From the NCBI GenBank assembly GCA_902784285.1, contig CACZUL010000002.1:1-37821 (forward strand): 37,821 nucleotides of DNA, in the 5' to 3' direction. Position numbers and translations under genes: made by a program. The notes beneath the pieces were generated by a model, which saw nothing but the letters and a program-made list of their open reading frames with translations, had not been told where the DNA came from and ran no database searches. This DNA comes from an uncultured Pseudomonadota bacterium. GTDB lineage: Bacteria > Pseudomonadota > Alphaproteobacteria > Rs-D84. This document shows positions 7,450 to 32,868 of this stretch, one piece after another (position 1 is the stretch's first letter; the number at the start of each line of letters is the position of its first letter).

Positions 7450-8283
7450 ATGAATAACAGTATTATATTTACGGGGGACGGACAAACAACCGTCTTTTAT
7501 TTTACTTTCCCGTTTTTTGGTGTGAATGATGTGCAGGTTACTGTTGATGGAATCATTCAGACAACAGATGTTTACACAATGACACCAACACCTGCACCAA
7601 ATGATGCGGATACAGAATACACTGGGGGTACAATAGAATTTAACAATGCCCCATCCGCAGGACAATCAATCAAGATTTATCGCGATATAGAATTGGTGCG
7701 ACATATTGACTATCAGCCAACATTGCAACCGCAATCGTATCAATTAAATCAGGATTTTAACCAATGTATCGGCGCATTACAGGGATTAAAAGCAAAAATA
7801 CAAAACGCAATCGGGATGGCGAATATTCCGACCGTGGCAGATTTGTTGACTGAATTGACGACTATCCGTACGGCTTTGCCAAATTTACTGGACCAAGATG
7901 ATTTGGATACTTTGAACGATACAATTGACGATATTCAAGATGCGTTAACCGCACTAAACGGATATGATTATGTTGTGGAATCTCAATTACCAACCGCCGA
8001 TAATAATTATACATGGTACCGCAAATACAAAAGTGGCTGGGTCGAGCAGGGCGGACGCATAACGTTAAATGGTCAGATTTCTGCGAGCAACAAGCGAATA
8101 ACATTTCCAATAAAGATGTCGGATACAAAATATACGGCATGTGCACATTTAAACGCTAATGCCGGGATGCAGGCAGTGTATGTCGGGTGGGAAGGCACGG
8201 CGGGTATGTCCGTTGGCACCGCCAGCGCGTCAAGTACCGGGCAAACAACGTGGTATGTCTGTGGCACGGCATCCAACGAATAA
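7450..8283 (+). CDS. Phage tail-fibre-like protein (T7-type tail-fibre N-terminal domain, coiled-coil middle, gp53-like C-terminal domain)
   Basis: The N-terminus FTGDGQTTVFYFTFPFF..DVQVTVDG...GQSIKIYRDIE..R.IDYQ......YQLNQDFNQ follows the pattern of podovirus tail-fibre N-domains. The C-terminus has GWVEQGG...ITFPIKMSDTKYTA...WYVCG. SD aaaagga upstream. Confidence 0.6.
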   Translation: MNNSIIFTGDGQTTVFYFTFPFFGVNDVQVTVDGIIQTTDVYTMTPTPAPNDADTEYTGGTIEFNNAPSAGQSIKIYRDIELVRHIDYQPTLQPQSYQLNQDFNQCIGALQGLKAKIQNAIGMANIPTVADLLTELTTIRTALPNLLDQDDLDTLNDTIDDIQDALTALNGYDYVVESQLPTADNNYTWYRKYKSGWVEQGGRITLNGQISASNKRITFPIKMSDTKYTACAHLNANAGMQAVYVGWEGTAGMSVGTASASSTGQTTWYVCGTASNE

Positions 8284-8312
8284 AAAATCGGGACGAGTGT
8301 CCCGATTTTTTT
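8284..8312. terminator. Bidirectional terminator between convergent genes
   Basis: Stem atcgggac/gtcccgat flanked by an A run upstream and a T run downstream. Confidence 0.7.
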
Positions 8313-9309
8313 ATTTCCGAACCGCAAAACCGTTTTCGTCACGTGGGGGCATTTTATATAATTTACCAAGTTCTTTTTGAACAGTGTCATTATCGGGGGC
8401 AAATGTTATAAGTCCCGCATTTGGCGAAAATGTCAATTCGCCGAATATCAGTTCACCCGATTTGGTTTCATAAAAATCCACACGTACCAAATCAAAAGGT
8501 TTTGATAATTTTTCGGCGATTTCTAACATTTCTTTAAAGTGCCCTGGGCGTGTTTGCTCGTTCAGTACCCATCTATTGGCGTCCGCCCTGAAAAACGGCA
8601 AGCGTTTCCAATTTTTATCATAATAACATGTGCCAACACTATTATGGCCTTTGATATATGATACCAATTGAATAAATTCCACATGCCCATTAAAGCAATA
8701 TAATTTATATTCTATATCCTCACGTATATCGACCATTTCGCGTGCTATGATGATTGGCTTAATATAGTAGTATTGCATTTCACAAGCAAAATCAGAATGA
8801 TTATATAACATCCACTTTCTGATAAGGTGTTTGATTTCTGACTCCTTTACCCGTGATTTATCGTAAACAACCAAGTTTTGTCCTGATCCGGCATTAAAAC
8901 TTAAAACGAACGATTGGGGCAATTTATCCAAATTGAATTCATCGGCATTTTTATATACCGCATATAATTTAGGTAAATATTTTTTGCCAATTGTTTTTTC
9001 AACATAATCGCGAACCAAATATTTATCAGCACATTGAATTTTTAATGGGGTCACATCAAACATAGATGCCCAAATAATTTTTTCGTTTAAAGTTTCTAAT
9101 TTTTCGGTGGGCAATTTGCCAGTGTATTCAAAAAATTTATCACGTAAGAAAATATGCAACCGATCAGCTGATATGTACTTCAAAGGTACTTCATTATTTA
9201 CAACAATCTTTGTTTGTCTGTCGCATCTTTTATAACTGGCCACCTTGATTCCACATAAGTAAATATGTATACGTCCATTGGGGCAATGTTCCTTCCTAAA
9301 TATTTTCAT
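8311..9309 (-). CDS. TupA-like ATP-grasp protein (glycan/teichuronopeptide-type modification)
   Basis: ADKYLVRDYV, LPKLYAVY, FVLSFNAGSGQN, DIEYKLYCFNGHVEFIQ and YYDKNWKRLPF follow the ATPgrasp_TupA pattern commonly found in capsule/LPS clusters. Confidence 0.7.
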   Translation of the reverse strand: MKIFRKEHCPNGRIHIYLCGIKVASYKRCDRQTKIVVNNEVPLKYISADRLHIFLRDKFFEYTGKLPTEKLETLNEKIIWASMFDVTPLKIQCADKYLVRDYVEKTIGKKYLPKLYAVYKNADEFNLDKLPQSFVLSFNAGSGQNLVVYDKSRVKESEIKHLIRKWMLYNHSDFACEMQYYYIKPIIIAREMVDIREDIEYKLYCFNGHVEFIQLVSYIKGHNSVGTCYYDKNWKRLPFFRADANRWVLNEQTRPGHFKEMLEIAEKLSKPFDLVRVDFYETKSGELIFGELTFSPNAGLITFAPDNDTVQKELGKLYKMPPRDENGFAVRK

Positions 9310-9321
9310 ATTAAAAACCTC

Positions 9322-10242
9322 TTAAAATTTCATATGACGCAAATGCCACCAAAAACTACGATGTTTCCTTTTGTTATTTCGTGATCGATTTGGAATAGAT
9401 GCAATAATCATTTTGTGTAAAAACATTTCATAAAAAGCTGTTTGTCGCGCATATTTCCACCAATATTCCGAACAACGCTGGCGACCGGTTGCGTCCAACC
9501 ACGGTTTATGTGAATAAAATCCCGTGAAATGCATAATCTTGATTTCTTCACAAGTCATTTCAGGGAATAATTGCGGGAAAATATTGTATCTTTTATCAAC
9601 CAGCATCAATCGGTCTGGATGCGCCTTTGTAAAATATTGATACAATAAATTTTGGTCACAGAATCGTTTGTCCTGCACGGTTTTCCCAAATTCCAGTAAT
9701 GTATTTATTGTATTTTCTTTGCGCCATTGGTTCAGGTTTAACATAACAAACCCAGAATTAGAAACATCGTCACCCATTTCTTCAAATCCGCGGGGTGCGC
9801 CCATGGCAAGTAATTTGTCACCCATTTTCATATCAAACACTTCCGACAAATCGCAGTTCACAATTATATCCGTGTCCAGATAAATTGCGCGTGATATATT
9901 TTTCGGCAATACAATTGGCGCCAACAGGTAAAAATAGTGCGTCAATGATACGTTGCGTCCCCACATACCAATATTCTGGCCGTCCAACATAGGCATCAGC
10001 TCGGTAATATCATAAAAGAATATTTTTGCGCCCACGCCAGCCAGTGTGTTTTTTGCACGATCAAAATACGATTGGCGTTCGGTATCCGATATTGGTTTTA
10101 CAATATCGGCATACATAAAGTGCACATTTACCGGGCGACCCATTGCCATTTCAATCGCGGACATGGCGGTTACAATCGCATAAGGCAAATAATCAGATGT
10201 TGCCGCGAATAATATATCTATTGGTTTTTTATTTTTTTGCAT
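9322..10242 (-). CDS. Glycosyltransferase family 8
   Basis: YLDTDIIVNCDLSEVF (DxD), NSGFVMLNL, DQNLLY and HFTG..KPW are GT8 (LPS galactosyl/glucosyltransferase-like) hallmarks. Confidence 0.85.
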   Translation of the reverse strand: MQKNKKPIDILFAATSDYLPYAIVTAMSAIEMAMGRPVNVHFMYADIVKPISDTERQSYFDRAKNTLAGVGAKIFFYDITELMPMLDGQNIGMWGRNVSLTHYFYLLAPIVLPKNISRAIYLDTDIIVNCDLSEVFDMKMGDKLLAMGAPRGFEEMGDDVSNSGFVMLNLNQWRKENTINTLLEFGKTVQDKRFCDQNLLYQYFTKAHPDRLMLVDKRYNIFPQLFPEMTCEEIKIMHFTGFYSHKPWLDATGRQRCSEYWWKYARQTAFYEMFLHKMIIASIPNRSRNNKRKHRSFWWHLRHMKF

Positions 10243-10308
10243 ATGGAAACCCTTGGCTATACGAATACCGCCTCTAATGGGAAACCTATCATATTTTTTT
10301 ATGCAATG

Positions 10309-11451
10309 CTACATTTTTATTCTAATAAATGCCGGCAGATAATAATCCAAATGCGAGCCAATCTGAATTCCAAATATTTGAACGCGCCAACCCACAAAAT
10401 AATCCGCTGATGGCGTACGAATCGATATCAAAAAGCGGCGAATATTTGCCAAGGTCAATGGATATCTGTATCGTGTTGCACCCACCATATCGTTTGCCAT
10501 AATGCACGCGCAGAATAGTTGATCGGTGCGTGAAAAATATTTCCATTTAAACGAATAGTCTTTCTGTAATGGGGCAAACACCTTGTATAACTCATCAAAA
10601 TACTGAGATTTATATTGCCACATTATTACCCGAAAGAACCAAAAGTTTGCCAGATATACGTGATAGTAGATTTCTTCTTTGACTAAATCCAGAACGCCAT
10701 TTTTGCGCAATACATCAATTGCGGCAATACATTGCGAAGCCATTACTATCAGTCGGGCATCGCGGCGGATTGTGGACGAACCTTGGCCTTCTTCCATTCG
10801 ATAATGGACCAAATAATCTTTTTCAACCGATATGCGCTTCGCACGGGACATAACTTCGCACATAAACGGGAAATCTTGATAAGATGCGGATTTTGTTTCA
10901 CCCATTTTGATATCTTTGATAAAATCAGCGCGGTATAATGCCGCCCAAACGGATGCATGGAAAGCAACAATTTGTGGAAAATCCGCCAATGTAAATGCGC
11001 CATCAGGTGCATTAAACAGGTTCATATAGTGTAATTTCCATTTTCGGTTGATGTTTTTTTCTTTTTGAGCCAGCGAATTATAGACATAAAAACTGCATTT
11101 AACAACATCGGAATTATTTTTGACGGCATTGTTATATAATTTTTCATACATTGTTGGTTCAATCCAGTCATCAGATTCGATAATGCCAACATATTCGCCG
11201 CGCGCCAGTTCAATACCATGATTTACCGCAACACCATAACCACCGTTCGGTTGATGAACTGCGACAACACGTTTATCACGCTTTGCATATTCATCGACAA
11301 TCTGTGGACATTTGTCCGGTGATCCATCATCGACCAATATAATCTCGATGTCTGTCAATGTTTGCGCCAATATAGAATCAACACATTGATTTAAATATTT
11401 TTCCACGCCATAAATAGGAACAACTATCGATACTTTTGGTTGCTTTGTCAT
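10309..11451 (-). CDS. Glycosyltransferase family 2
   Basis: VSIVVPIYGVEKYLNQCVDSILAQTLTDIEIILVDDGSPD and IESDDW match GT2. Start placed at the ATG at 11451, which has aggaaggtg upstream. Confidence 0.88.
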   Translation of the reverse strand: MTKQPKVSIVVPIYGVEKYLNQCVDSILAQTLTDIEIILVDDGSPDKCPQIVDEYAKRDKRVVAVHQPNGGYGVAVNHGIELARGEYVGIIESDDWIEPTMYEKLYNNAVKNNSDVVKCSFYVYNSLAQKEKNINRKWKLHYMNLFNAPDGAFTLADFPQIVAFHASVWAALYRADFIKDIKMGETKSASYQDFPFMCEVMSRAKRISVEKDYLVHYRMEEGQGSSTIRRDARLIVMASQCIAAIDVLRKNGVLDLVKEEIYYHVYLANFWFFRVIMWQYKSQYFDELYKVFAPLQKDYSFKWKYFSRTDQLFCACIMANDMVGATRYRYPLTLANIRRFLISIRTPSADYFVGWRVQIFGIQIGSHLDYYLPAFIRIKM

Positions 11452-11465
11452 AACAAACACCTTCC

Positions 11466-12563
11466 TTATAATTTAATCTTGCGTATAACAATTTTGTTAA
11501 ACAAATAATGCGCTTTGTACCCGCCACGAATGCGGGATTTGTAAATTGGTGATATAATGGTGATAAATGCGCGCGTAATCGGGTATATTGGGTTATGTGG
11601 GTGTATAACGCACAACAATTTTAACCATTGTTTATTGTCAAAATAGTTTTTGTTTAATGTACCGTTGGCGTAATAATTGCGATATTCCGATGTAAAACGT
11701 TTACGGAATTCGCGTTTCGGTTCACCAGAAAGCCGGCGCAAATTCCATACGTAATTTGAGAATCTGCATTGATTTGCTATGTTCGTATATTTTTCCAAAT
11801 CGGGCATATTTTCCGCCAACCATTTGTCTGTATCGTCATGTGCATCCGATACCGCAAATACCTTGCTGTTATTTTTATCAGAATTGTTAGCATGTTTACG
11901 ATAGTGTAATACAACCTTGGGCAAATAATAAAAACGTTTTGCCGCCATAAATGTTTTGGGTTTAAATCCCATGTCTTGGAATGCTGCACCTGGGGTTGGG
12001 ACAAACCTAATATTCTTTTCTTGAAGCATTTTATTACTGTATAAGCATGTCCATATACTTGGGTGACCGGTCCAAATGATTTCTGGATTTTGTTCCGTAG
12101 GACAAAACACCTTTTCTTTTAAATCATCGGCGATACCAATTGCCCAACAAGGTGTTTCTTCTCTTGTGTCGTTGTCAAAGAACACGAAGTCGGCCTTAAC
12201 CATATCTGCTTTATTTTTCTTTGCGGCATTATATAAAGTTTCAAAGGCATCTGGTTCAACCCAATCGTCACTTTCCACGATACCAACATATTCGCCTGTT
12301 GCCGCATCCAGACCGCGATTCATCGATTTGCCGTAGCCTTCATTTTCTTTGTCAATAATAACAATGCGTTTGTCGCGTTTTGCATAATCTTTGATTATAT
12401 CCAGAGTCGAATCCGTAGACCCATCATTGATACAGATAATTTCTATGTCATCTAACGTTTGTGCTATGATACTATTTAAACATTCGCCTAAATATTTTTC
12501 TACATTATAGCACGGAACAAGAATGGATACTTTAGGTTTTTTGGTGTTTTTTTCTTCTCTCAT
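11466..12563 (-). CDS. Glycosyltransferase family 2
   Basis: VSILVPCYNVEKYLGECLNSIIAQTLDDIEIICINDGSTD and VESDDW match GT2. The ATG at 12563 forms an ATGA overlap with the glf stop and has SD aagggg upstream. Confidence 0.88.
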   Translation of the reverse strand: MREEKNTKKPKVSILVPCYNVEKYLGECLNSIIAQTLDDIEIICINDGSTDSTLDIIKDYAKRDKRIVIIDKENEGYGKSMNRGLDAATGEYVGIVESDDWVEPDAFETLYNAAKKNKADMVKADFVFFDNDTREETPCWAIGIADDLKEKVFCPTEQNPEIIWTGHPSIWTCLYSNKMLQEKNIRFVPTPGAAFQDMGFKPKTFMAAKRFYYLPKVVLHYRKHANNSDKNNSKVFAVSDAHDDTDKWLAENMPDLEKYTNIANQCRFSNYVWNLRRLSGEPKREFRKRFTSEYRNYYANGTLNKNYFDNKQWLKLLCVIHPHNPIYPITRAFITIISPIYKSRIRGGYKAHYLFNKIVIRKIKL

Positions 12564-13654
12564 GATTTCAACCCCTTGATTATTTCGAAACAACGCGCGA
12601 TTGCCTTGTCCATATCATAATATTTGTAGTCACCCAATCTACCAAAAAAATAAACATTGGGTTTATTTTCCGCTAATTTTATATATTTTTGGTAAAGTTC
12701 TGCGTTTTTATCGTTGGCAATTGGATAATATCTTTCATTTTTACCTTCTTGAAACGCCTCGGGATATTCGTAAGATACTATCGTCTTATCCGATTTATCG
12801 TTCAAGAAATGTTTATATTCTCCGATTCTTGTCCAATCATAATTACATGGATAATTCACAACCGCAACATCTTGAAATTTATCATATGGATATGTGATAA
12901 AATCGAAACGCTCGCTGCGATATGGTAATGCACCATACTCATAATTGAAAAATTCATCTATACTGCCCGACCAAAACAACCTGTTGTATTCCATGTTATT
13001 ATCAAAAGGGGTTTTTAATTTAACAGTTATATTTTTATGCTTCAATATATTCTTAACCATAGCGGTATATCCACCGATCGGTATACCTTGGTATTTATCT
13101 TGAAAATATCTGTCATCACGGGAAATATATACCGGCACGCGTCCTGATACAGATGGATCAATTTCATCTGGCGTTTGTCCCCATTGTTTCAAAGTATATT
13201 CAAGAAAGACTTTTTCGTAAATGTATTGAGCCAAAAACTGCAAATCTTTGTCGTCTTTTTTGCGTAATTCCAAAATAGGCACTTTTACATTAAGCCCAAA
13301 ATTTTCCAATAATTTTTCTTCAATTTTGTTCGCCATACTTGTTGGAAATACCGCATGCAAAGTATTCAAATTAAATGGTATCGGCACAATCTGGCCATCA
13401 ATCAACCCCTTTACTTTATGTTGATATGGGTGCCATTTACAGAAACGACTTACAAAATCCCAAACAGTTTTGTTATTGGTATGAAAAATATGGGTTCCAT
13501 ATTTGTGTACGCATATACCATCTTCGTAATAGTCATAGATATTTCCAGCAATATGATCTTTGGAATCTATAATAACAACTTGTTCGCCAGATTCAGCCAA
13601 TAAACGTGCCAATGTTACCCCAGAAATTCCGCATCCAACTATAAGATTTTTCAT
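12560..13654 (-). CDS. glf: UDP-galactopyranose mutase
   Basis: FAD-binding VGCGISG, then IAGNIYDY and KYGTHIFHTNN, and full-length similarity to Glf. Start at the ATG at 13654 with SD gagga. Confidence 0.92.
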   Translation of the reverse strand: MKNLIVGCGISGVTLARLLAESGEQVVIIDSKDHIAGNIYDYYEDGICVHKYGTHIFHTNNKTVWDFVSRFCKWHPYQHKVKGLIDGQIVPIPFNLNTLHAVFPTSMANKIEEKLLENFGLNVKVPILELRKKDDKDLQFLAQYIYEKVFLEYTLKQWGQTPDEIDPSVSGRVPVYISRDDRYFQDKYQGIPIGGYTAMVKNILKHKNITVKLKTPFDNNMEYNRLFWSGSIDEFFNYEYGALPYRSERFDFITYPYDKFQDVAVVNYPCNYDWTRIGEYKHFLNDKSDKTIVSYEYPEAFQEGKNERYYPIANDKNAELYQKYIKLAENKPNVYFFGRLGDYKYYDMDKAIARCFEIIKGLKS

Positions 13655-13682
13655 AACAATTCCTCGTGTAAATATCAATTGA

Positions 13683-20354: not shown

Positions 20355-21116
20355 TTATCTTAGCCGCGGATCTCGTATCGGCATATTTCTAAAAGTGCCT
20401 GGATTATCGTATTGTTGTTTGTGTTCGAATTGGACGGTGCCGGGCTGCCACTGTAACGAAGCGTCTTGGAATAAAGTTTTTTGATGCGCCTTTATGGCAT
20501 CTTCCAATTGTGATACAATACTCATTGTTTGGTCCGAAAATTTTTCAATTGGGCAACGTAAAAGTGTAATCTGGATGCCATTTTCTTTAATTTCTTTGCT
20601 CTCAACTGGAATATCAAACTGGCTTAATAATTTTTGTGCTTCTCTGATTTCAGATTTACTTTGGGGGACATAGAAACAGATATATTTCTTTTCGGTGCCA
20701 TCGGTCTTGTTTGTAAAGATTCCCCGTTCAATTTTAAGTATTTTACCTTTTAACTGTTCAAGTTTATTTTTTTGCGCGCGCTGAATAATACGCAAATCCA
20801 GATTATTTAAATTGCGCAATCTTTCGTAATCCGCCGTCATTTCCCACGCGGTTGTATCCAGTGTCGGATTTTGACCCAATTCAAAAATAATCTCGGTTAC
20901 AGATGTGTTACGGGTCATGGCATAGCCGCCGGGTTGGGTCATGTATTTAACTTTTTCAAAATCAGGCATTGAAAAAAATGCTTTAAGTATCTCGTAATCT
21001 TCTTCGCTGCGTGGTGTGATTGTACATTTGGCTGAACCAGCCACATGGTTATTAACAAAAACGCCTTCGCAGTGTCTGCGGAAAAAGTCGGCAATCATAG
21101 GATATGTATATTCCAT
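20355..21116 (-). CDS. Hypothetical protein (253 aa), no recognisable family
   Basis: Long ORF with a strong SD (aggaga) 6 nt upstream of the ATG. No TM segment, signal peptide or catalytic motif that I can name. Confidence 0.55.
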   Translation of the reverse strand: MEYTYPMIADFFRRHCEGVFVNNHVAGSAKCTITPRSEEDYEILKAFFSMPDFEKVKYMTQPGGYAMTRNTSVTEIIFELGQNPTLDTTAWEMTADYERLRNLNNLDLRIIQRAQKNKLEQLKGKILKIERGIFTNKTDGTEKKYICFYVPQSKSEIREAQKLLSQFDIPVESKEIKENGIQITLLRCPIEKFSDQTMSIVSQLEDAIKAHQKTLFQDASLQWQPGTVQFEHKQQYDNPGTFRNMPIRDPRLR

Positions 21117-26480: not shown

Positions 26481-27467
26481 ATGAACAAAAATTTTTTAGA
26501 TTTTATGCGGAACTTTGTCGGTCAAAAAATGGCCGTCGGGGTCAGTGGCGGGGTCGATTCGGTCGCATTGTTGCATTGGTTGGTGGAAATCGGTGCGGAT
26601 GTGGTGTGTTTGCATGTGAATCACAATTTGCGCCCGTCCGCCGGGGTGGAAGCCCAATATGTCGCAGATTTATGTAAAAAATTGGGCGTTGAATGTCATA
26701 TCTTTTCGTGGGGCGGGGAAAAACCCGAAACCGGTTTGGAAGATGCCGCGCGTGTTGCACGTTATAAATTTATGACGGATTTTTGTCATAAAAATAAAAT
26801 CAAAATCATCCTTACCGCGCACCAGGCGGACGATCAAATTGAAACTTTTTGGATGAACCTTGGACGGGGCAGTGGGGTTTACGGTTTGGCCGCTATGCGC
26901 GATGTTGGCGAAATGGACGGTATTAAAATTGTGCGACCATTACTTGGGGTGTTTCGGCGCGAACTGCGTGATTATTGTGATACACGGGGCATTAAATACT
27001 TTGCAGATGAAATGAACGATGACCCACATTATACGCGTGTAAAGATTCGGCAAAATCGGCACTTGGTTGGGGATGCGCTTGGCATTTCCGATGAACGCAT
27101 ATTATTGGCAATTCAAAACATGGGGCGCGTGCGTGAAACACTGGAAAATTATGTCGATAAATTGGTCGCGCGTGTGATGTTGGATGGGCGTGCAATATTT
27201 TCTGAATCTTTTCTATTTGACCAAAGCCCCGATATTAGGTTAAAGTTTTTGGGAACCATTATTCAAATGGTCGGGGGGGACAGGTATCAGCCACGATTGA
27301 ATTCATTGGTGGGCGCGGTGGATAAATTGCATGACGATTGCAAATTTACCATCGGGCATTGTACAGTGCGTCGTTTTCGTGGTCGAATTTTAGTTGTCCG
27401 TGAAGGTAAAAAGACAAGTTTTAGAATCAGGAAAAGGTATCATGGAAAAAAATATATTAAAAAATAA
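26481..27467 (+). CDS. tilS: tRNA(Ile)-lysidine synthase (short form)
   Basis: PP-loop VGVSGGVDSVALLH, HVNHNLR and TAHQADDQIETF. It is syntenic with the downstream ftsH. Confidence 0.9.
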   Translation: MNKNFLDFMRNFVGQKMAVGVSGGVDSVALLHWLVEIGADVVCLHVNHNLRPSAGVEAQYVADLCKKLGVECHIFSWGGEKPETGLEDAARVARYKFMTDFCHKNKIKIILTAHQADDQIETFWMNLGRGSGVYGLAAMRDVGEMDGIKIVRPLLGVFRRELRDYCDTRGIKYFADEMNDDPHYTRVKIRQNRHLVGDALGISDERILLAIQNMGRVRETLENYVDKLVARVMLDGRAIFSESFLFDQSPDIRLKFLGTIIQMVGGDRYQPRLNSLVGAVDKLHDDCKFTIGHCTVRRFRGRILVVREGKKTSFRIRKRYHGKKYIKK

Positions 27468-29307
27468 GAAACGCAATAATTCCAATTTGTTCTTAATTCT
27501 GTTTGGAATAATGTTTGTTGTTCTGGTTGGCGGCGCGTTTATGTCGCGTGGCGGGTTGAATACGGCCGTGGATGTGGTATCGAACGAACCGGTGGAATTG
27601 ACTTTTTCTGATGTTCTGCGCCGGGCGGACGAAATTAAAACTATGAAGATTCGCGACAATGTTGCAACCGGTCAATTGCGGGATGGAACCAAATATAACG
27701 CGGTTATTACATATAATCCAGAACTGTTGGAAAAATTGTCCAATGGTGGCACGGTTGTTTCAATTGATACATCCAAGGGTTGGGTTGATTACCTTGGAAC
27801 ATGGGTGCCGATTTTGATGGGACTGTTCTTTATATGGTGGATTTTCCGCGGTATTCGCGGCGGCGCGGGTGGAATAAGTCGCACATTAATGGGGCAAAAC
27901 CCGACAAAAATTGTAACTGGAAAACCCAAGACTACATTTAAAGATGTTGCCGGAATCGATTCGGAAAAACAGGAATTGGCCGAGGTTGTAGATTTCCTGC
28001 GCGACAAATCAAAGTTTGCCGCCGTGGGCGCGCGTGTGCCACGTGGTGTGTTGTTGGCGGGTGAACCCGGAACTGGTAAGACACTGTTGGCGCGTGCCAT
28101 CGCGGGTGAGGCGAATGTCCCGTTCTTTGCCGCATCGGGCAGTGATTTTTCCGGTATCATTGTCGGTTTGGGTGTCGCAAAAATCAAAGAGATTTTCGAA
28201 ATGGCAAAACGCAATGCGCCATGTTTGTTATTCATCGATGAAATAGATGCAATCGGTCAACGCCGCAGCCAGAATTCTTTTAACGATCAAGACCGCGAAC
28301 AGACATTGAACCAATTACTGATTGAAATGGATGGTTTTTCAAACGAAACAGGCATCATTGTTATTGGTGCAACGAATCGGCCGGATATGTTGGACCCGGC
28401 GTTGTTGCGTCCCGGCCGTTTTGACCGCCAGGTGCATATTGATTTGCCCGATATGGCGGGCCGCAAAGCAATTCTGGAATTGCACGCGAAAAAAATCAAA
28501 ATGCATGAAGATGTGAACCTTGGCGATTTGGCGCGTGGGACAACGGGACTTTCGGGTGCGGATCTGGAAAACCTGTTGAACGAGGCCGCCTTGCACGCGG
28601 TGCGCAGTGGCCATAAAATGGTTGCCCCCGATGATATAGAAGAAGCCCGCGATAAATTGTTGATGGGACCACGCAAAATTCGCAAAATGCGCCCCGAAGA
28701 TATAAAACTGACCGCGTATCACGAAGCCGGACATGCCTTTGTCGCAACGCATTATGCGGATATCGCCGACCCGATTCACAAGGCAACAATTATTCCGCGT
28801 GGGCGTGCGCTGGGGATGGTGCAACATTTGCCAATTGACGACAAGGTTTCAATGTCCATTGCCGAAGTGCGCGCAAATTTGGCGATTTCTATGGCGGGTC
28901 GCGCAAGTGAAGCGGTATTCTTTGGCGCAGATAAAATTACCACCGGGGCCGAGGCCGATATTGCGATGGCGACGCGCCTTGCCCGGCGTTCGATTACCAC
29001 CGCCGGATTATCAAACAAAATTGGTTTGGTCGCGATTAACCAGGCGCAAACATTTGGTTCGCGTGTACCGTTGGAAAATGCTTCGGAAAAAACCGCAGAA
29101 ATTGTTGATGCGGAAATCAAAAATTGGACCGATGCCGCATATCGTGATGCCGTTAGTATTTTGACCAAGAATAAAGCGGTGGTTAAAAAACTGGCCGAAG
29201 AATTATTGAAGCGCGAAACATTGACCGGCGAAGAAATTATGAAAATTGTTGGTAAAAAGCCGGCAAAAAAGACGACGGTCAAAAAGGCGAAAGTTGCAAA
29301 AAAATAA
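27442..29307 (+). CDS. ftsH: ATP-dependent zinc metalloprotease FtsH
   Basis: Walker A GEPGTGKTLLARAIAGEA, a DEID Walker B, the second region of homology (SRH) and Zn motif HEAGHAF. The ATG at 27442 has SD aggaaaagg and overlaps tilS by 26 nt. Confidence 0.96.
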   Translation: MEKNILKNKKRNNSNLFLILFGIMFVVLVGGAFMSRGGLNTAVDVVSNEPVELTFSDVLRRADEIKTMKIRDNVATGQLRDGTKYNAVITYNPELLEKLSNGGTVVSIDTSKGWVDYLGTWVPILMGLFFIWWIFRGIRGGAGGISRTLMGQNPTKIVTGKPKTTFKDVAGIDSEKQELAEVVDFLRDKSKFAAVGARVPRGVLLAGEPGTGKTLLARAIAGEANVPFFAASGSDFSGIIVGLGVAKIKEIFEMAKRNAPCLLFIDEIDAIGQRRSQNSFNDQDREQTLNQLLIEMDGFSNETGIIVIGATNRPDMLDPALLRPGRFDRQVHIDLPDMAGRKAILELHAKKIKMHEDVNLGDLARGTTGLSGADLENLLNEAALHAVRSGHKMVAPDDIEEARDKLLMGPRKIRKMRPEDIKLTAYHEAGHAFVATHYADIADPIHKATIIPRGRALGMVQHLPIDDKVSMSIAEVRANLAISMAGRASEAVFFGADKITTGAEADIAMATRLARRSITTAGLSNKIGLVAINQAQTFGSRVPLENASEKTAEIVDAEIKNWTDAAYRDAVSILTKNKAVVKKLAEELLKRETLTGEEIMKIVGKKPAKKTTVKKAKVAKK

Positions 29308-29323
29308 ATTCGAAATTTTACAA

Positions 29324-29920
29324 ATGGCGCCCGAATTTACCAATTCGGTATTGGTGTCGGACGGTGTAAATTGTGTAATATTTGATGCCTGGGGTCGCGC
29401 GGATGATTGGATTAAATTGTTGGACACGCGCGGGGTGCGTCCGGTTGCAATTTATGCAACACATGGGCACAGCGACCATATTTCCGCCGCACCCGCACTG
29501 GCCGCACATTATAATATTCCCTGGTTTATGAACGCGGCGGATGTGCCGTTGATTTTGTGGGGAAACCAAATTCTGGATTTTTGGGAATTGCCGCGAATTC
29601 CGGATGATTTTGTACGCCCGCAAAATTTGACCGCGGGCCGGGTCAAAATTTTGAATGATGTAGAAATGGAAATAATTGCGTCGCCTGGTCATTCGTTGGG
29701 TGGTGTAATGTTTTACTTTCCGGAATATAAAATATTGCTGACTGGCGATACCATTTTCCGTGACGGGGTGGGGCGAACCGATTTACCGGGTGGTGATGAT
29801 AAAACTTTGCGTGAATCTATCGCGAATTTTGGGAAAATGAATTTACCCGACGACACATATATTGTTCACGGCCACGGCCCGGATTCTATGATGTGTGATA
29901 TTAAAAACCGATTACAATAA
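29324..29920 (+). CDS. MBL-fold hydrolase (YcbL/glyoxalase II-like)
   Basis: THGHSDH metal motif, SPGHSLGG and GDTIFRDGVGRTDLPGGD. Start placed at MAPEF (29324), because the upstream part of the ORF overlaps ftsH. Confidence 0.8.
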   Translation: MAPEFTNSVLVSDGVNCVIFDAWGRADDWIKLLDTRGVRPVAIYATHGHSDHISAAPALAAHYNIPWFMNAADVPLILWGNQILDFWELPRIPDDFVRPQNLTAGRVKILNDVEMEIIASPGHSLGGVMFYFPEYKILLTGDTIFRDGVGRTDLPGGDDKTLRESIANFGKMNLPDDTYIVHGHGPDSMMCDIKNRLQ

Positions 29921-29969
29921 TTTGACATTGCCGCAAATTGTGCTAACTTTATCGCGTATAAAGAAAAAA

Positions 29970-30716
29970 ATGTACAAGATGTCGGATGACGCAAAGAAAT
30001 TTTTGAAAGAATATGGACTGGATAATTTGCCACGGACCTTTAATTATCCGGCTTTTCGGGGCAAATATGTTTTTATGTTGCACGATTTTAATCAAAATTT
30101 TCAATATGGCCCAATTGTTGCAAAACGCATGAATGATTTTTATGAACTGTTGGATGCGGGTGCGCGTGTTGTGGACGGAATATTTTGGGACCAACCCAAA
30201 ACTATCGAGCCTGGGTTTATCGCACGTTGTGGCCAACCACAAAAAATAAATGAGAAATATGTTCTGTATAATGTGGGTACACTTAAACATGGCGAATGTG
30301 TCGAAGTGCCGCATATGTTTGTCAAAGACCCATATGACAAAAACTTTATGAAAGATATGCATGATGGCGATCGCGCAACATTGGAAAACATAATTGTAAA
30401 TGAAAAAGACGATACGGCATGGCTTGGGTGGGACCATATTGAACGCACAAAATGGTGCAATTATAAACTGTCAAAGAAAAAAAGCGAAGAATTGTTAGAT
30501 GGTTTTGATGCGTTTATTTGGGCAACGACTTTGTTGGATGTTGATAAAATTGCTGCGCTTAATCTTTTGCGTTATGCCCGTGAAATAATGCCATGTTTCC
30601 TGGATTCTGGTTTTGAACGTTATTATGATACCAACAGCCAACAACTCCCATATGTTCCAACCAGAATCAAGGTAACCATATGGAATGGTACTGAAATTGT
30701 AGACCAAAGTCGATAA
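29970..30716 (+). CDS. Hypothetical protein (248 aa), first gene of the ACP-fusion cassette
   Basis: Long ORF with no motif I recognise. The start is uncertain (ATG at 29970 or 29979; the ORF-track GTG at 29895 overlaps the MBL gene). Confidence 0.5.
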   Translation: MYKMSDDAKKFLKEYGLDNLPRTFNYPAFRGKYVFMLHDFNQNFQYGPIVAKRMNDFYELLDAGARVVDGIFWDQPKTIEPGFIARCGQPQKINEKYVLYNVGTLKHGECVEVPHMFVKDPYDKNFMKDMHDGDRATLENIIVNEKDDTAWLGWDHIERTKWCNYKLSKKKSEELLDGFDAFIWATTLLDVDKIAALNLLRYAREIMPCFLDSGFERYYDTNSQQLPYVPTRIKVTIWNGTEIVDQSR

Positions 30717-30738
30717 AAATGAAAAAAAGGACATGTGC

Positions 30739-31371
30739 ATGACATACAATGAAATATTGAAACAAATTCGGCCGATTATTGCAAAACAATTAGATGTTGA
30801 ACCGGTTGATGTTAAAATGTCTGCAAACCTGACTCACGATTTGGGTGCGGATTCATTGGATGCATTGGAATTGAGAATTGCGGTTGAACGGGAATTTAAT
30901 ATCAGAATTCCCGATGAAGACACAATGAATATTTTTACGGTTGGCGATGCGGTAAATTATATACATCAACGTATTTCACCGGACGATGCACCAAAAAATA
31001 AAAGGCCCAATACCAAAACACAAACCCGTGTATATTTTGGCGCACCCGGATATGACAGTTTGTTATGTGGATATTTGCCGAATGATAAAATATATGATTA
31101 TTTGAAAAACCTGAGCAAACAAAATTTAAGTCAACAGCATTGCGCACGTTATGGGTTTTCATTTACTGGTTGTCCGTATGATGGGCATTTAAAGCAAACT
31201 TTAATACTGGATGCCAGTATAGAAGATGGGGTTACCAGTGTATACGGACTGAATCCGTTATGTGGTGTGCGCACCGTCCATGGATGTTTTCGCAAATTAA
31301 AACGGGGAGAATGTAAAGACCCGTTTGTCGTTGAAAATGTCGGTAAAAACGGTGGACAAAAAAATATTTGA
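30739..31371 (+). CDS. Acyl-carrier-protein domain fused to an unknown Cys/His-rich C-terminal domain
   Basis: The first ~80 aa align with AcpP (IIAKQLDVEPVDV....LTHDLGADSLDALELRIAVEREFNIRIPDED...TVGDAVNYI). About 130 further aa carry 6 Cys. SD aaagga lies 8 nt before the ATG at 30739 (alternative start 30733). Confidence 0.7.
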   Translation: MTYNEILKQIRPIIAKQLDVEPVDVKMSANLTHDLGADSLDALELRIAVEREFNIRIPDEDTMNIFTVGDAVNYIHQRISPDDAPKNKRPNTKTQTRVYFGAPGYDSLLCGYLPNDKIYDYLKNLSKQNLSQQHCARYGFSFTGCPYDGHLKQTLILDASIEDGVTSVYGLNPLCGVRTVHGCFRKLKRGECKDPFVVENVGKNGGQKNI

Positions 31372-32002
31372 ACAAATAGCGCCATATATCGCTGACAAAT
31401 TGGGGGTTGACCAATGCGAGGTAACGAGAGATGCAGATTTACAAAATGATTTGGGTGCGGACTCTTTGGATATGGTTGAAATGATGTTGAAGTTTCAAAT
31501 GGAGTTTAAAGGTACTTTCCCTGACGAGGAACAAGAGCTAATTCGGACCGTTGGTGATGTGATAGATGTTATAAAAAGGACGAGTGCATTAGACTGGATA
31601 CGCGATGGTCAGGTACAGTCGACCGCAACGGTTGCGAAACCGGCCGCAGAACCGGAACAAAAACGTGTTGTTAAAAAAACATCGGCCAAGGAAACCACGG
31701 TAACTTTGACCAATGTGCCAAATGGTAAAGAAAAACCGACAGTTTTGAATTGTGGGACAATTACGGATGCCCAGAAACAAGATTTCTTGGCGGCGATTTC
31801 AGAACACAAACCAAGTGATGGCGATAATCATACATGTGGTTTCAATGTTTATCACGCGAAACAAAGTGCCATGCGCGTGGTTCCGTATAATGTGTCCACA
31901 AATTTCCAACCGACCAAACAAAAAATTGGCAAGAATGAATTGATTGTGGAAATGATACCGATGTCCAAAAAAGAATGCGGATCATGGGCAAACTATTGGT
32001 GA
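31337..32002 (+). CDS. Acyl-carrier-protein domain fused to an unknown C-terminal domain (paralog of the preceding gene)
   Basis: The N-terminus IADKLGVDQCEVTRDADLQNDLGADSLDMVEMMLKFQMEFKGTFPDEE...TVGDVIDVI is ACP-like. The C-terminal ~140 aa share CG..(x)..DFL..IS, H.CGF and KECG segments with the upstream gene. The two genes overlap by 35 nt, and the start is uncertain. Confidence 0.65.
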   Translation: MSVKTVDKKIFEQIAPYIADKLGVDQCEVTRDADLQNDLGADSLDMVEMMLKFQMEFKGTFPDEEQELIRTVGDVIDVIKRTSALDWIRDGQVQSTATVAKPAAEPEQKRVVKKTSAKETTVTLTNVPNGKEKPTVLNCGTITDAQKQDFLAAISEHKPSDGDNHTCGFNVYHAKQSAMRVVPYNVSTNFQPTKQKIGKNELIVEMIPMSKKECGSWANYW

Positions 32003-32075
32003 TTGCACATCGCCATTGGTTAAACGGACCGTTGGTGCACTGTTGTTCCCGGATAAATATGGCAAACAGCGTTAA

Positions 32076-32106
32076 AAACAAACCCCGAAGAAATTCGGGG
32101 TTTTTA
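32076..32106. terminator. Bidirectional terminator
   Basis: Stem ccccgaa/ttcgggg with a leading A-rich stretch and a trailing T5. It overlaps the prmC stop. Confidence 0.75.
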
Positions 32107-32868
32107 GATTGTAAATACTAATACCCGTGTTATGCCCGATAAATCGCGTTCGGCGCGCACGAATTTCCAACGGTTTGATTCAAATATTTTTTTTACCGCG
32201 TCGCCTGCGCCCGCGCCAATTTCAACATATATGCGCCCGGATTTCTTTAACCAATTTTTTGCGTTTTTTGCAATCTGTTCGTATGCCGCGTTGCCGCCAT
32301 GTGCGGCGTACAGTGCTAATTTAGGGTCGTGCTTTGCGCCCGCATCTACACGCGGGTCGCCGATTGCAATGTACGGCGGGTTGGAAACGATAATATCAAA
32401 TTTTTCGCGCACCGCGCGTGGCGCGCCAAAAGACGCGCGGGTAATTTTAATTTTGTTCGATAAATCAAAATTCTTTGTATTGCGACGTGCCACCCGAATT
32501 GCCCTGCGTGAAATATCAACGGCTGTGCCGGTTGCGCCATGAATATTTTTTACCAATGATATAATGATGCAACCTGTGCCGGTTCCCAAATCCAGTATTT
32601 TTGGATTTTGCGGGTTGTCCGCAATTACCGCCGCGACCAATGTTTCGGTATCGGGGCGTGGGTCCAGTGTGTATTTATTTGTATAAAACGGCAATCCATA
32701 AAACCATTTTTGATGAATTATCTTGGCCACCGGCACCCCGCGGCGCAGTGCGCGCGCCATAAACCACACCCGCAAATGCGATGGATTTTTAACATTGTCG
32801 GTGATAATTCGGGCGGCCCGAATCCCCCCGGCATCTTTTAAAATTTCAAAAACTTGATTTATTGTCAT
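32104..32868 (-). CDS. prmC: Release-factor glutamine N5-methyltransferase (PrmC/HemK family)
   Basis: SAM motif ILDLGTGTGCI and catalytic IIVSNPPYI. PrmB cannot be excluded from sequence alone. Confidence 0.8.
   Translation of the reverse strand: MTINQVFEILKDAGGIRAARIITDNVKNPSHLRVWFMARALRRGVPVAKIIHQKWFYGLPFYTNKYTLDPRPDTETLVAAVIADNPQNPKILDLGTGTGCIIISLVKNIHGATGTAVDISRRAIRVARRNTKNFDLSNKIKITRASFGAPRAVREKFDIIVSNPPYIAIGDPRVDAGAKHDPKLALYAAHGGNAAYEQIAKNAKNWLKKSGRIYVEIGAGAGDAVKKIFESNRWKFVRAERDLSGITRVLVFTI

What the first reader, a model, noticed from the sequence alone, without database searches (positions are those of the whole stretch)
29970..32002. Three-gene cassette ending in two tandem, paralogous ACP-domain fusion proteins with an unrecognised Cys/His C-terminal domain
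Two adjacent genes overlap by 35 nt in different frames. Each encodes an N-terminal ~80-aa domain that aligns along its whole length with AcpP and keeps the phosphopantetheine attachment motif (DLGADSLDALEL and DLGADSLDMVEM). Each then continues for ~125-140 aa, which canonical ACPs lack. The two extensions look homologous to each other: CGYLPNDKIYDYLKNLSKQN vs CGTITDAQKQDFLAAISEHK, HCARYGF vs HTCGF, and RGECKDPF vs KKECGSW. This suggests a duplicated novel domain, possibly metal-binding. A 248-aa ORF with no motif I can name lies 22 nt upstream in the same orientation. A strong terminator follows the last gene, so the three genes look like one operon. No ketosynthase, acyltransferase, acyl-ACP synthetase, phosphopantetheinyl transferase (PPTase), condensation or thioesterase partner lies nearby. 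The only hydrolase is the upstream MBL-fold gene. The cassette is wedged between housekeeping genes (ftsH, prmC) and looks more AT-rich than they do. A carrier protein covalently tethered to an unknown domain, present in two copies, does not fit any pathway architecture I know.
Basis: partly seen in the sequence, partly recalled or inferred. Interest (0 to 1): 0.75.

Follow-up and report, generated by a model that had tools for sequence, protein, structure and literature searches.

The report
Decayed ACP-fusion cassettes in symbiont hot spot
The two carrier-protein fusion genes are real but deletion-damaged copies of a previously undescribed, fast-swapping family of small proteins that tiny-genome gut bacteria (Candidatus Enterousia) keep in cassette arrays at fixed chromosomal sites; what the family does is still unknown.

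Summary
Both genes begin with a genuine AcpP-type domain that keeps the attachment serine. Both continue into a homologous Cys-rich extension that matches no Pfam, NCBIfam, PHROG, PADLOC or PDB entry.

The 35-nt overlap is a scar. Compared with the intact 214-aa and 252-aa gene pair in a related metagenome contig, the window has two deletions. A 62-nt deletion removes the first gene's tail and stop, and the second gene's ribosome-binding site and start. A 23-nt frameshifting deletion cuts off the second gene's conserved end, which is still readable out of frame.

The extension is a family of about 135 aa, with 162 representative clusters at 50% identity. Most members stand alone, have four near-invariant Cys and end in FPDKYGKQR. 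AlphaFold is confident (pLDDT 85.7), but Foldseek finds only faint beta-grasp resemblance.

The window comes from a Ca. Enterousia (order Rs-D84) relative, a lineage with genomes under 1 Mb and reported to lack lipid synthesis. There, these genes sit in arrays of 2-12 cassettes between a conserved promoter and terminator. Array content differs between close strains.

In these arrays, 73% of products end in arginine, against 6% of other ORFs. The 248-aa gene is a diverged fragment of phosphoglycerate kinase.

Function is unproven. My best guess is partner-directed or exported accessory proteins rather than a biosynthetic pathway.

The parts
29922..29949 (+). Conserved promoter-like element just after the MBL-fold gene stop (29918-20): -35 TTGACA (29922-29927), 16-nt spacer, extended -10 TGcTAACTT (29941-29949). 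It appears to drive the cassette array.
   Evidence: TTGACA and AAATTGTGCTA are invariant in 8 genomes at the same site, whatever the first cassette is. Sequence read.
29970..30716 (+). Cassette 1 (ORF248). An orphan protein whose N-half is a diverged fragment of the phosphoglycerate kinase N-domain. It ends in ...EIVDQSR.
   Evidence: No Pfam, NCBIfam, PHROG, PADLOC or PDB hit. It is 59% identical to a gene inside another array (L015 13683-14648). BLASTP E 6e-12 to residues 4-108 of a bona fide PGK (PF00162, E 1e-116) in L020. Absent from this site in L001 and L024.
30739..31371 (+). Cassette 2 (type-A ACP fusion, truncated). AcpP-like domain (about nt 30748-30972, Ser in DLGADSLD), a charged linker, then a Cys-rich domain that lacks its last 11 residues. 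The final 8 codons (31348-31371) are read out of frame from the next gene.
   Evidence: PF00550 E 8.6e-12 and TIGR00517 82.3 bits. Intact orthologues are 214 aa and end ENVGKVFWPDKYGKQR. The domain HMM covers positions 4-125 of 139, scoring 64 bits against 86-93 bits for intact copies.
31346..31347 (+). Scar of a 62-nt deletion. It removed the 3' end and stop of cassette 2, the spacer with its Shine-Dalgarno site, and the ATG plus 2 codons of cassette 3.
   Evidence: Pairwise DNA alignment with L024, which carries the intact pair (columns 648-709).
31337..32002 (+). Cassette 3 (type-B ACP fusion, truncated). A substitute ATG without an evident SD, an AcpP-like domain (about nt 31358-31582), a Pro/Ala/Lys/Gln-rich linker, then a Cys-rich domain cut after its second conserved Cys.
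   Evidence: PF00550 E 9.4e-10 and TIGR00517 71.0 bits. It is 98% identical to the 252-aa P0033. The domain HMM covers positions 4-100 only, scoring 44.5 bits against about 105 bits for intact copies.
31996..31997 (+). Scar of a 23-nt deletion (CATTGTCCAATATGTTTGGCATC, encoding HCPICLAS). It shifts the frame and creates the TGA at 32000-32002.
   Evidence: columns 1360-1382. Sequence read.
31998..32075 (+). Orphaned, out-of-frame remnant of the conserved C-terminal tail of cassette 3 (GDCTSPLVKRTVGALLFPDKYGKQR*).
   Evidence: Motif scan of the six-frame translation. The domain HMM matches positions 112-136 in the other frame.
32080..32108 (.). Hairpin terminator (AAACCCCGAAGAAATTCGGGGTTT plus T run), shared with the convergent prmC gene and conserved at the end of the array in other genomes.
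   Evidence: The same sequence follows the last cassette in L001, L008, L009, L010, L013, L017, L019, L023 and L024.

Best explanation
SHOWN.
- The segment 29922-32108 is one instance of a recurrent 'expression site' in Ca. Enterousia / order Rs-D84. These are gut and rumen Alphaproteobacteria with genomes under 1 Mb.
- The site has a conserved promoter after the MBL-fold gene, a conserved terminator before prmC, and between them 1-4 tightly packed cassettes that differ from genome to genome. Each cassette has its own Shine-Dalgarno site.
- The window holds three cassettes.
- Cassettes 2 and 3 belong to a lineage-restricted modular family. The modules are: (optional) a recruited AcpP-like domain, a flexible linker, and a domain of about 120 aa not found in any library searched. 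That domain has a beta-beta-alpha-beta-beta-beta core, four (near-)invariant Cys and a conserved C-terminal helix ending FPDKYGKQR.
- In this window both are damaged by deletions of 62 nt and 23 nt. These remove invariant parts of the domain, so both are most likely inactive or decaying alleles.
- Cassette 1 is built on a degenerate PGK N-domain.
- Cassettes move independently of the genome backbone and evolve faster than their neighbours, yet remain under purifying selection.
- Across unrelated cassette families the product almost always ends in Arg. All Arg codon families are used, so the constraint acts on the protein.

INFERRED (mechanism).
- These are not parts of an acyl-chain assembly line.
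- They are accessory, partner-directed proteins of an obligately dependent bacterium.
- The Cys4 domain is probably a metal-stapled binding module.
- The basic, Arg-terminated C-terminus is probably a shared recognition tag for export, handover or protection.
- The ACP module is probably a borrowed, usually still modifiable swinging arm or docking surface that the family can do without.
For: Deletions: alignment with L024, HMM coverage, out-of-frame tail.

Family:
- 22 and about 60 full-length homologues.
- 162 representative clusters with E<=1e-3, mostly 120-150 aa stand-alone proteins.
- Type A and type B domains are homologous, E 1.8e-14.
- No Pfam family is shared among 94 members. No PDB sequence hit.
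- Confident AF2 model (pLDDT 85.7) with no Foldseek match below E 0.02 in PDB or BFVD.

Host: 16 genome loci, all Ca. Enterousia or uncultured rumen and gut Alphaproteobacteria. The lineage is reported to lack lipid, amino-acid and nucleotide synthesis and to be partner-dependent (PMC12306168).

Hot spot and turnover:
- Cassette content differs in 9 genomes at the same MBL|prmC site.
- Conserved promoter and terminator.
- The type-B cassette is 97.7% identical (dS 0.10) to L024, whose flanks have dS about 0.9. It is only 71.6% identical to L001, whose flanks have dS 0.05-0.16.

Selection: dN/dS is 0.2-0.5 in cassettes against 0.04-0.17 in most flanking genes. Tail codons vary synonymously.

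Arg terminus: 51 of 70 array products against 14 of 234 other ORFs end in Arg. Codons used are AGA 28, CGA 8, CGT 8, CGG 4, AGG 1.

ACP module is optional: most family members lack it. 8 of 77 intact fusions have lost the Ser. The same ACP module is joined to different C-domains.

PGK origin of ORF248.
Against: - No secretion or recognition machinery has been identified, and none lies in the window or the fetched flanks.
- No signal peptides are evident.
- AlphaFold packs the FPDKY helix onto the domain with high confidence. At least that part of the tail is structural rather than a free signal.
- 90% of fusions keep the Ser, and the ACP domains pass the AcpP equivalog cut-off. A real carrier role is therefore not excluded.
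- The two deletions are seen on one metagenomic contig only and were not checked against reads.
- The PGK similarity of ORF248 rests on one pairwise comparison. It is invisible to Pfam and to PDB profile searches.
Confidence: 0.55

Rival explanations
1. Working lipid-scavenging carriers. The ACP fusions are phosphopantetheinylated and loaded with host-derived fatty acids. The Cys-rich domain docks them onto membrane acyltransferases. The adjacent MBL-fold (glyoxalase-II-like) hydrolase acts as a thioesterase on the acyl-ACP.
For: - The ACP domains score above the AcpP equivalog cut-off and keep the DSL serine.
- 69 of 77 intact fusions keep the Ser.
- The Pro/Ala/Lys-rich linker resembles swinging-arm linkers (sequence; comparison from general knowledge).
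- The organism is reported to lack lipid synthesis and so must acquire lipids.
- The MBL gene is the constant left neighbour of this hot spot. It matches GloB-type thioester hydrolases weakly, at 65.6 bits against a cut-off of 200.8.
Against: - Most members of the domain family have no ACP at all.
- 8 intact fusions lack the Ser.
- Arrays with ACP fusions at other chromosomal sites have no MBL neighbour.
- Copy number and presence vary between close strains, and here both copies are broken, which is unlike an essential lipid route.
- No acyl-ACP synthetase or acyltransferase is seen near any array.
Confidence: 0.15
2. Nothing functional: the locus is a graveyard of duplicated, recombined and decaying gene fragments (acpP, pgk) in a degenerating genome, or the odd structure is an assembly artefact.
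For: - Both window genes are truncated by out-of-frame deletions.
- ORF248 is a degenerate PGK fragment without catalytic motifs.
- Chimeric or truncated family members exist in the databases, for example P0027, P0050, P0077 and P0079.
Against: - Intact homologues are numerous and under purifying selection: dN/dS 0.2-0.5, with synonymous variation at conserved tail codons.
- The family spans 162 clusters at 50% identity with conserved Cys and tail.
- The AF2 model is confident.
- Promoter, SD sites and terminator are conserved.
- The deletion junctions carry no long repeat of the kind that causes assembly collapse.
- The lineage is reported to have normal coding density and no pseudogene accumulation.
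Confidence: 0.12
3. A conflict system: the arrays are collections of anti-phage, immunity or anti-toxin genes, comparable to orphan immunity arrays. Diversity is driven by an arms race, and the proteins act inside the cell.
For: - Tightly packed co-directional arrays of small, diverse, fast-evolving genes at hot spots, exchanged between strains.
- HNH and pyrimidine-dimer excision genes lie beside one array.
- One array protein weakly matches a PADLOC methyltransferase model.
Against: - No significant PADLOC hit for the family.
- No toxin, recombinase or large delivery gene is nearby.
- No relatives in 2.9 million viral contigs.
- The shared Arg terminus has no counterpart in known immunity arrays (general knowledge).
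Confidence: 0.1

Closest known systems
Type II acyl carrier protein AcpP (PF00550 / TIGR00517)
   Same: The N-terminal ~80 residues align end to end with AcpP. They keep the DSL serine, score above NCBI's equivalog cut-off, and are 52% identical to a stand-alone AcpP-like protein recovered by the same homology search (taxon not established).
   Different: - Here the domain is fused through a 20-45 aa linker to an unrelated ~120 aa domain.
- It is multi-copy and strain-variable, and the Ser is lost in about 10% of intact members.
- No FAS, PKS or NRPS partner is present, and the host lineage is reported to lack lipid synthesis.
Integron gene-cassette arrays
   Same: One upstream promoter drives a row of promoter-less, co-directional, strain-variable cassettes at a fixed chromosomal site. 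Cassettes are exchanged independently of the backbone.
   Different: - No integrase gene lies in any fetched flank.
- There are no attC-like inverted repeats.
- Spacers are only 11-31 nt and consist of a Shine-Dalgarno region.
- The shared feature lies in the protein C-terminus, not in DNA.
Effector repertoires recognised by basic C-terminal signals or a shared C-terminal domain (e.g. VirB/D4 substrates of Alphaproteobacteria; Xanthomonas XVIPCD effectors) - comparison from general knowledge
   Same: Many unrelated, modular, fast-evolving proteins in a host-dependent bacterium share a positively charged C-terminus. A subset shares a whole conserved C-terminal domain.
   Different: No type IV (or other) secretion genes were found or searched for genome-wide. 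The terminal residue is specifically Arg. Translocation is untested.
Beta-grasp (ubiquitin-like / SSL / DIX / PB1) folds
   Same: The predicted beta-beta-alpha-beta-beta-beta core gives beta-grasp proteins as the only recurring Foldseek matches.
   Different: Matches are not significant (E >= 0.02, TM 0.2-0.35, rmsd about 9 A). The Cys-rich three-helix C-terminal half has no counterpart.
NuoG / [FeFe]-hydrogenase N-terminal module (2Fe-2S beta-grasp followed by the H-x3-C-x2-C-x5-C cluster motif, PF10588)
   Same: Some members carry (H)C-P-x-C-x5-C directly after a beta-grasp-like core. Two family members give sub-threshold hits to PF10588 or Fe_hyd_lg_C.
   Different: Hits are far below cut-off and occur in 1 of 94 members each. 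The middle Cys is absent from most of the family. Foldseek does not retrieve these proteins.

Membership tests
Acyl carrier protein (AcpP-type, PF00550/TIGR00517) | ~75-80 aa four-helix domain matching the PP-binding / AcpP profile | tested here: met
   PF00550 E 8.6e-12 and 9.4e-10. TIGR00517 82.3 and 71.0 bits (cut-off 70.45). PDB ACPs match residues ~3-82.
Acyl carrier protein (AcpP-type, PF00550/TIGR00517) | Conserved Ser of the D-S-L motif for 4'-phosphopantetheine attachment | tested here: met
   DLGADSLD is present in both window proteins. Family-wide, 69 of 77 fusions keep the Ser and 8 have lost it.
Acyl carrier protein (AcpP-type, PF00550/TIGR00517) | Actual phosphopantetheinylation by AcpS or another PPTase | not testable with these tools
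   No PPTase in the 37.8-kb window. The whole genome was not available.
Acyl carrier protein (AcpP-type, PF00550/TIGR00517) | Discrete ~78-aa protein working with FAS, PKS or lipid enzymes | tested here: not met
   The proteins are 212-252 aa fusions. No partner enzyme is present in the window or in array flanks. The lineage is reported to lack lipid synthesis.
Integron cassette array | Adjacent tyrosine-recombinase integrase (intI) and attI | tested here: not met
   No recombinase among called genes with Pfam annotation within +/-8-10 kb in L001, L004, L006 and L024.
Integron cassette array | attC recombination site (imperfect inverted repeat, ~60-140 nt) after each cassette | tested here: not met
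   Spacers are 11-31 nt, A-rich with an SD. There are no inter-cassette inverted repeats in the window.
Integron cassette array | Common upstream promoter driving promoter-less cassettes | tested here: met
   A TTGACA-16 nt-TGnTAACTT element is conserved in 8 genomes ahead of different first cassettes. The promoter is predicted, not measured.
Secretion substrates with basic C-terminal signal (T4SS-type) | Positively charged C-terminus shared by otherwise unrelated proteins | tested here: met
   Terminal Arg in 51 of 70 array products against 14 of 234 other ORFs. Mean net charge of the last 10 residues is +1.7 against +1.0.
Secretion substrates with basic C-terminal signal (T4SS-type) | Cognate secretion apparatus or coupling protein in the same genome | not tested
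No apparatus genes lie in the fetched flanks.
Secretion substrates with basic C-terminal signal (T4SS-type) | Demonstrated translocation | not testable with these tools
   Experimental.
Beta-grasp fold superfamily | Structural superposition with significant score | tested here: inconclusive
   The model is confident (pLDDT 85.7). The best PDB match has E 0.026, TM 0.24/0.35 and rmsd 9.2 A.
Phosphoglycerate kinase (PF00162) - for ORF248 | Match to the PGK profile over both domains with substrate-binding motifs | tested here: not met
   No PF00162 hit and no PDB hit even with a 2-sequence profile. Only residues 22-141 align to the N-domain of a related PGK at 33% identity, E 6e-12. It is a derived fragment, not a member.
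Known anti-phage defence / immunity proteins (PADLOC) | Match to a defence-system model | tested here: not met
   No hit for ORF248, P0001 or P0033.

The most novel reading that the evidence does not exclude
Rs-D84 symbionts run an integrase-free cassette system. Fixed promoter-terminator 'expression sites' hold small protein genes that are swapped between strains. These genes are assembled by fusing recruited housekeeping modules (AcpP, PGK N-domain, possibly BirA) or novel domains to a C-terminal module ending in arginine. The Arg terminus is the address label of a so far unknown export or hand-over route to the partner cell. If so, the label would let the whole effector repertoire of an uncultured, obligately dependent gut lineage be read from sequence. 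The Cys4 beta-grasp-like domain would be a new metal-binding fold.
Probability: 0.25. Interest if true: 0.8.

Novelty: categorically new. Interest (0 to 1): 0.6.

Why it matters
Ca. Enterousia and other Rs-D84 bacteria are widespread in ruminant, horse, chicken and human guts. Their genomes are under 1 Mb and they cannot make their own lipids, amino acids or nucleotides. How they live off other cells is unknown.

A genome that small still keeps several arrays of rapidly exchanged, selected small-protein genes. That points to the interface with the partner.

The shared Arg terminus and the conserved promoter and terminator frame give simple sequence handles. They can be used to catalogue these genes across metagenomes and to look for the machinery that reads the tag.

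The Cys-rich domain adds a family of at least 162 clusters with a confident predicted structure and no match in any library searched (AlphaFold DB was not available).

For annotation, these genes pass the AcpP equivalog threshold. They risk being called 'acyl carrier protein' and counted as evidence of lipid metabolism that the organism does not have.

Tried and rejected
- Library scans. Pfam, NCBIfam, PHROGs and PADLOC scans of all three products and of other array proteins found only the ACP domain.
- Fold searches. Foldseek of two AF2 models against PDB and BFVD gave nothing significant. AlphaFold DB was not available.
- PDB sequence and profile searches. The domain family (A5) and ORF248 (alone and as a 2-sequence profile) gave nothing.
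- Viral origin. A pattern scan of IMG/VR with the A4 alignment (types A-C) found no relative. The broader A5 alignment was too diverse for that tool.
- DNA-level junction element. I considered that the terminal ...KQR might reflect a conserved DNA element at cassette junctions. Rejected: Arg is encoded by five different codons from both codon families, and tail codons vary synonymously.
- Homing endonuclease or other enzyme. Rejected because the only family-wide invariant residues are Cys, Gly, Phe and Tyr.
- Programmed frameshift at 31996/7. Rejected: the site is a 23-nt deletion relative to a 98%-identical intact gene, and the first deletion also removes the start and SD.
- Assembly collapse on repeats. 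Unlikely, because there are no long repeats at the junctions.
- Fe-S module related to NuoG or hydrogenase. This remains only a lead from sub-threshold hits.
- Literature. Searches on Enterousia / Rs-D84 found genome descriptions but nothing on these genes. One multi-term search timed out, and the 2023 Enterousia paper is not held.
Full report
**1. What is in the window**

Searches show a co-directional run: tilS (26481-27467), ftsH (27394-29307), an MBL-fold hydrolase (ending at 29920), then three ORFs. These lie at 29970-30716, 30733-31371 and 31337-32002. The convergent prmC gene (32104-32868, minus strand) follows.

Both downstream ORFs begin with a bona fide AcpP-like domain.
- PF00550 gives E 8.6e-12 and 9.4e-10.
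- TIGR00517 gives 82.3 and 71.0 bits against a curated cut-off of 70.45.
- PDB matches are all acyl carrier proteins and are confined to residues ~1-82.
- Both keep the DLGADSLD serine.

The ~130-aa extensions and the 248-aa protein hit nothing in Pfam, NCBIfam, PHROGs or PADLOC. A hairpin terminator lies at 32080-32103. GC is 0.40 in the cassette against 0.43 for the window and 0.45-0.52 for the neighbours.

**2. The overlap is a scar, and both genes are truncated**

Full-length homologues of the first fusion are 214-215 aa and end ...ECKDPFVIENIGKVFWPDKYGKQR. The window protein ends ...ENVGKNGGQKNI. Homologues of the second fusion are ~245-255 aa and end ...HCPICLASGDCTSPFIRKHIGALLFPDKYGKQR. 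The window protein stops at ...ECGSWANYW.

A DNA alignment with locus L024 settles it. L024 carries an intact 214 + 252 aa pair at the same ftsH-MBL...prmC site. The window lacks two segments.
- **62 nt.** This covers the last 11 codons and stop of gene 2, the spacer with its Shine-Dalgarno site, and the ATG plus two codons of gene 3.
- **23 nt (CATTGTCCAATATGTTTGGCATC).** This lies inside gene 3. It shifts the frame and creates the stop at 32000-32002.

The conserved tail of gene 3 is still readable out of frame at 31998-32075.

An HMM of the domain family gives the following coverage:
- Window copy 1: profile positions 4-125 of 139.
- Window copy 2: positions 4-100, plus the orphan tail at 112-136.
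- Scores: 64 and 44.5 bits, against 86-105 bits for intact orthologues.

Residues C139, G146, C148 and Y166 are invariant across 94 diverse members. They are missing from gene 3. F162 (nearly invariant) and Y166 are missing from gene 2. Neither junction carries a long repeat, so assembly collapse is unlikely. I could not check reads.

**3. The extension is a real, previously undescribed domain**

The two extensions are homologous. With the ACP removed, a profile-profile comparison of type A against type B gives probability 98.3% and E 1.8e-14 over 117 columns.

RGECKDPF corresponds to SGDCTSPF, which is deleted from the window's second gene. KKECGSW corresponds to NPLCGVR.

A profile of natural stand-alone members was scored against 1.84 billion representative proteins.
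- It found 162 clusters at E<=1e-3.
- Nearly all are 120-150 aa with no other domain.
- 90% end in Lys or Arg.
- The core motif is C-x7-C-x2-(C)-x5-C-x-[DS]-x-F-[VI]-x3-[IV]-G-K-x-F-F-[AP]-D-K-Y.

No Pfam family is shared by the 94 members scanned, and there is no PDB sequence match. AlphaFold2 with the 94-sequence alignment gives a confident model: mean pLDDT 85.7 and pTM 0.74. The model has a beta-beta-alpha-beta-beta-beta core followed by three short helices. Foldseek finds nothing below E 0.02 in PDB or BFVD. The only recurring theme is faint similarity to beta-grasp folds, with TM 0.2-0.35.

Four invariant or near-invariant Cys suggest a structural metal site. This is inference.

**4. Whose genes are these?**

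The one genome-collection scan returned 16 loci. All come from rumen and gut MAGs named Ca. Enterousia or uncultured (Alpha)proteobacteria. Flanking housekeeping genes of the window are 98-99.7% identical to those of L001 (GCA_016281705.1).

Published genome analyses describe Enterousia / order Rs-D84 as follows (PMC12306168):
- Genomes are under 1 Mb.
- They lack pathways for amino acids, nucleotides and lipids.
- They probably depend on partner cells.

An ACP-centred biosynthetic pathway is therefore unlikely a priori.

**5. Cassette arrays at hot spots**

At the same MBL|prmC site the gene content differs in every genome examined:
- L024: A-B
- L001: A-D-B
- L008: A-87aa-B
- L009: A-79aa-D-B
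- L019: A-79aa-D
- L013: ACPx, ACP:D, ACP-only
- Window: ORF248-A(del)-B(del)

Here A, B and D are subtypes of the Cys-rich domain, with or without ACP.

The frame of the site is conserved.
- A promoter-like element is conserved in eight genomes directly after the MBL gene, whatever cassette follows. It reads TTGACA, 16 nt, TGcTAACTT (window 29922-29949).
- The same hairpin terminator closes the array in at least ten genomes.
- Spacers between cassettes are 11-31 nt and consist of an A-rich Shine-Dalgarno region.
- There are no attC-like repeats, and no recombinase lies nearby.

Elsewhere in these genomes the same gene types form arrays of 9-12 Pfam-less genes (L004 7424-12812; L006 1374-9646). 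More distant family members also occur as tandem pairs wedged between housekeeping genes. Examples are a pair between gatC and gatA in L030 and a pair next to gyrA in L028.

**6. Cassettes move and evolve on their own**

- Against L001, the closest genome (flank dS 0.05-0.16), the window's type-B gene is only 71.6% identical.
- Against L024 (flank dS ~0.9) it is 97.7% identical, with dS 0.10.
- Its tail (SPLVKRTVGALL) is of yet another type, seen in P0059 and P0080.
- Identical ACP modules are joined to different C-domains (P0045 against P0080).

Cassettes are therefore exchanged and recombined independently of the backbone. dN/dS is 0.2-0.5 for cassettes against 0.04-0.17 for most of the flanking genes. 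This is faster evolution, but still under purifying selection.

**7. A shared arginine terminus**

Of 70 non-redundant array products, 51 end in Arg, against 14 of 234 other ORFs from the same loci. This holds across unrelated cassette families...TEKVR...TNNR...TEISR...GKSR...NKGR...GHNR...ETCR and ...DQSR (the last is ORF248).

The terminal Arg is encoded by AGA (28), CGA (8), CGT (8), CGG (4) and AGG (1). Pro, Asp, Tyr and Gly codons in the FPDKYGKQR tail vary synonymously. The constraint is therefore on the protein, not on a DNA or RNA junction element.

I know of no described system that reads a C-terminal Arg in this way. The nearest concept is the basic C-terminal signal of alphaproteobacterial type IV secretion substrates (general knowledge), but no apparatus was identified here. 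AlphaFold packs the FPDKY helix onto the domain, so part of the tail is structural.

**8. Recruited housekeeping modules**

- The ACP modules are 52% identical to a stand-alone AcpP-like sequence (P0093) recovered by the same search, whose taxon I did not establish.
- ORF248 has a 59%-identical relative inside another array (L015). Its residues 22-141 align to the N-domain of a genuine PGK from a related genome (L020; PF00162, E 1e-116) at 33% identity and E 6e-12. Neither Pfam nor PDB profiles detect it, and the substrate-binding motifs are gone.
- A database protein (P0027) joins a BirA-like N-terminus to the type-A domain. It sits on a 1.3-kb contig and may be chimeric.
- ACP is optional for the family. 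Of 77 intact fusions, 8 have replaced the Ser by Ala, Pro or Phe while keeping the C-domain and tail.

**9. Interpretation**

Shown:
- The window holds a decayed instance of a lineage-restricted, modular, recombining cassette family.
- It sits at a conserved expression site.
- The ACP domains are genuine.
- The Cys-rich domain matches nothing in the libraries searched.

Inferred:
- These are accessory, partner-directed proteins rather than a biosynthetic pathway.
- The Cys4 domain is a metal-stapled binding module.
- The Arg-terminated tail is a shared recognition tag.
- The ACP is a borrowed swinging arm or docking surface.

Rivals:
- A real lipid-scavenging carrier with the MBL hydrolase as thioesterase. 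This is possible because 90% of fusions keep the Ser. It is weakened by ACP-less members, Ser-less members, arrays without an MBL neighbour, and strain-level dispensability.
- Junk or artefact. Purifying selection, family breadth and conserved expression signals argue against it.
- A defence or immunity array. No library supports it.

**10. Verdict**

The finding is real but mis-framed. It is not a fixed three-gene operon with an odd native overlap. It is a damaged sample of a larger and stranger phenomenon. The domain family and the Arg-terminated cassette arrays match no family or system in the libraries I could search. Function remains unknown. Interest: 0.6.

Noticed in passing
window 29970-30716; L015 13683-14648; L020 10399-11565: ORF248 is a degenerate derivative of the phosphoglycerate kinase N-domain (33% identity, E 6e-12 to a related genome's real PGK). 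In L020 the genuine pgk gene lies immediately after a cassette array, which suggests how the fragment was captured.
   Followed up: partly
L004 7424-12812; L006 1374-9646; L015 9010-14956; L020 7559-10384: Long arrays of 9-12 tightly packed Pfam-less genes. Several unrelated N-terminal domains share the same 25-40 aa C-terminal modules, for example ...NLNQIWPxxTxxxPxxLxxLLxxTTExxR and ...EKPEETMSACERIKRFFGKKxTEISR. All end in Arg.
   Followed up: partly
L024 4240-4632 (also L025-L027): A further stand-alone copy of the Cys-rich domain sits between ftsH and the MBL gene. The ftsH|MBL junction is therefore a second insertion point, and it is empty in the window.
   Followed up: no
L030 7570-8414: In a more distant genome, two tandem paralogues of the domain family lie between gatC and gatA, in the same orientation.
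   Followed up: no
protein P0027 (187 aa, 1.3-kb ENA contig): A BirA-like N-terminus (HTH, PF08279) is joined in frame to the type-A Cys-rich domain at a ...STNDYLK... microhomology. This is either another housekeeping-gene capture or a chimeric contig.
   Followed up: no
protein P0215 (274 aa): One polypeptide appears to contain two copies of the Cys-rich domain in tandem.
   Followed up: no
window 7450-8283 (+): A 277-aa protein whose N-terminus weakly resembles the phage T7 tail-fibre N-terminal domain (PF03906, E 0.0012, below cut-off). It sits alone among housekeeping genes.
   Followed up: no
window 8311-13678 (-): The lowest-GC stretch of the window (0.34-0.40). It encodes a TupA-like ATP-grasp protein (PF14305, E 4.5e-33), three ORFs that look like glycosyltransferases, and an ORF that looks like UDP-galactopyranose mutase. 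Only the ATP-grasp protein was scanned; the other assignments are from reading the translations. This is probably a surface-polysaccharide cluster.
   Followed up: no
window 20355-21116 (-): A 253-aa orphan protein without a Pfam hit, ending in ...RDPRLR. It lies upstream of the groEL region, and an ORF of similar size occupies the matching position in L001. It may be another Arg-terminated accessory gene outside an array.
   Followed up: no
proteins P0095, P0097, P0077, P0087; L006 4930-5424; L013 9238-9726 and 10569-10964: AcpP-like N-domains are also fused to other, unrelated short C-terminal modules. Nearly all of these also end in Lys/Arg-rich tails with a terminal Arg.
   Followed up: partly
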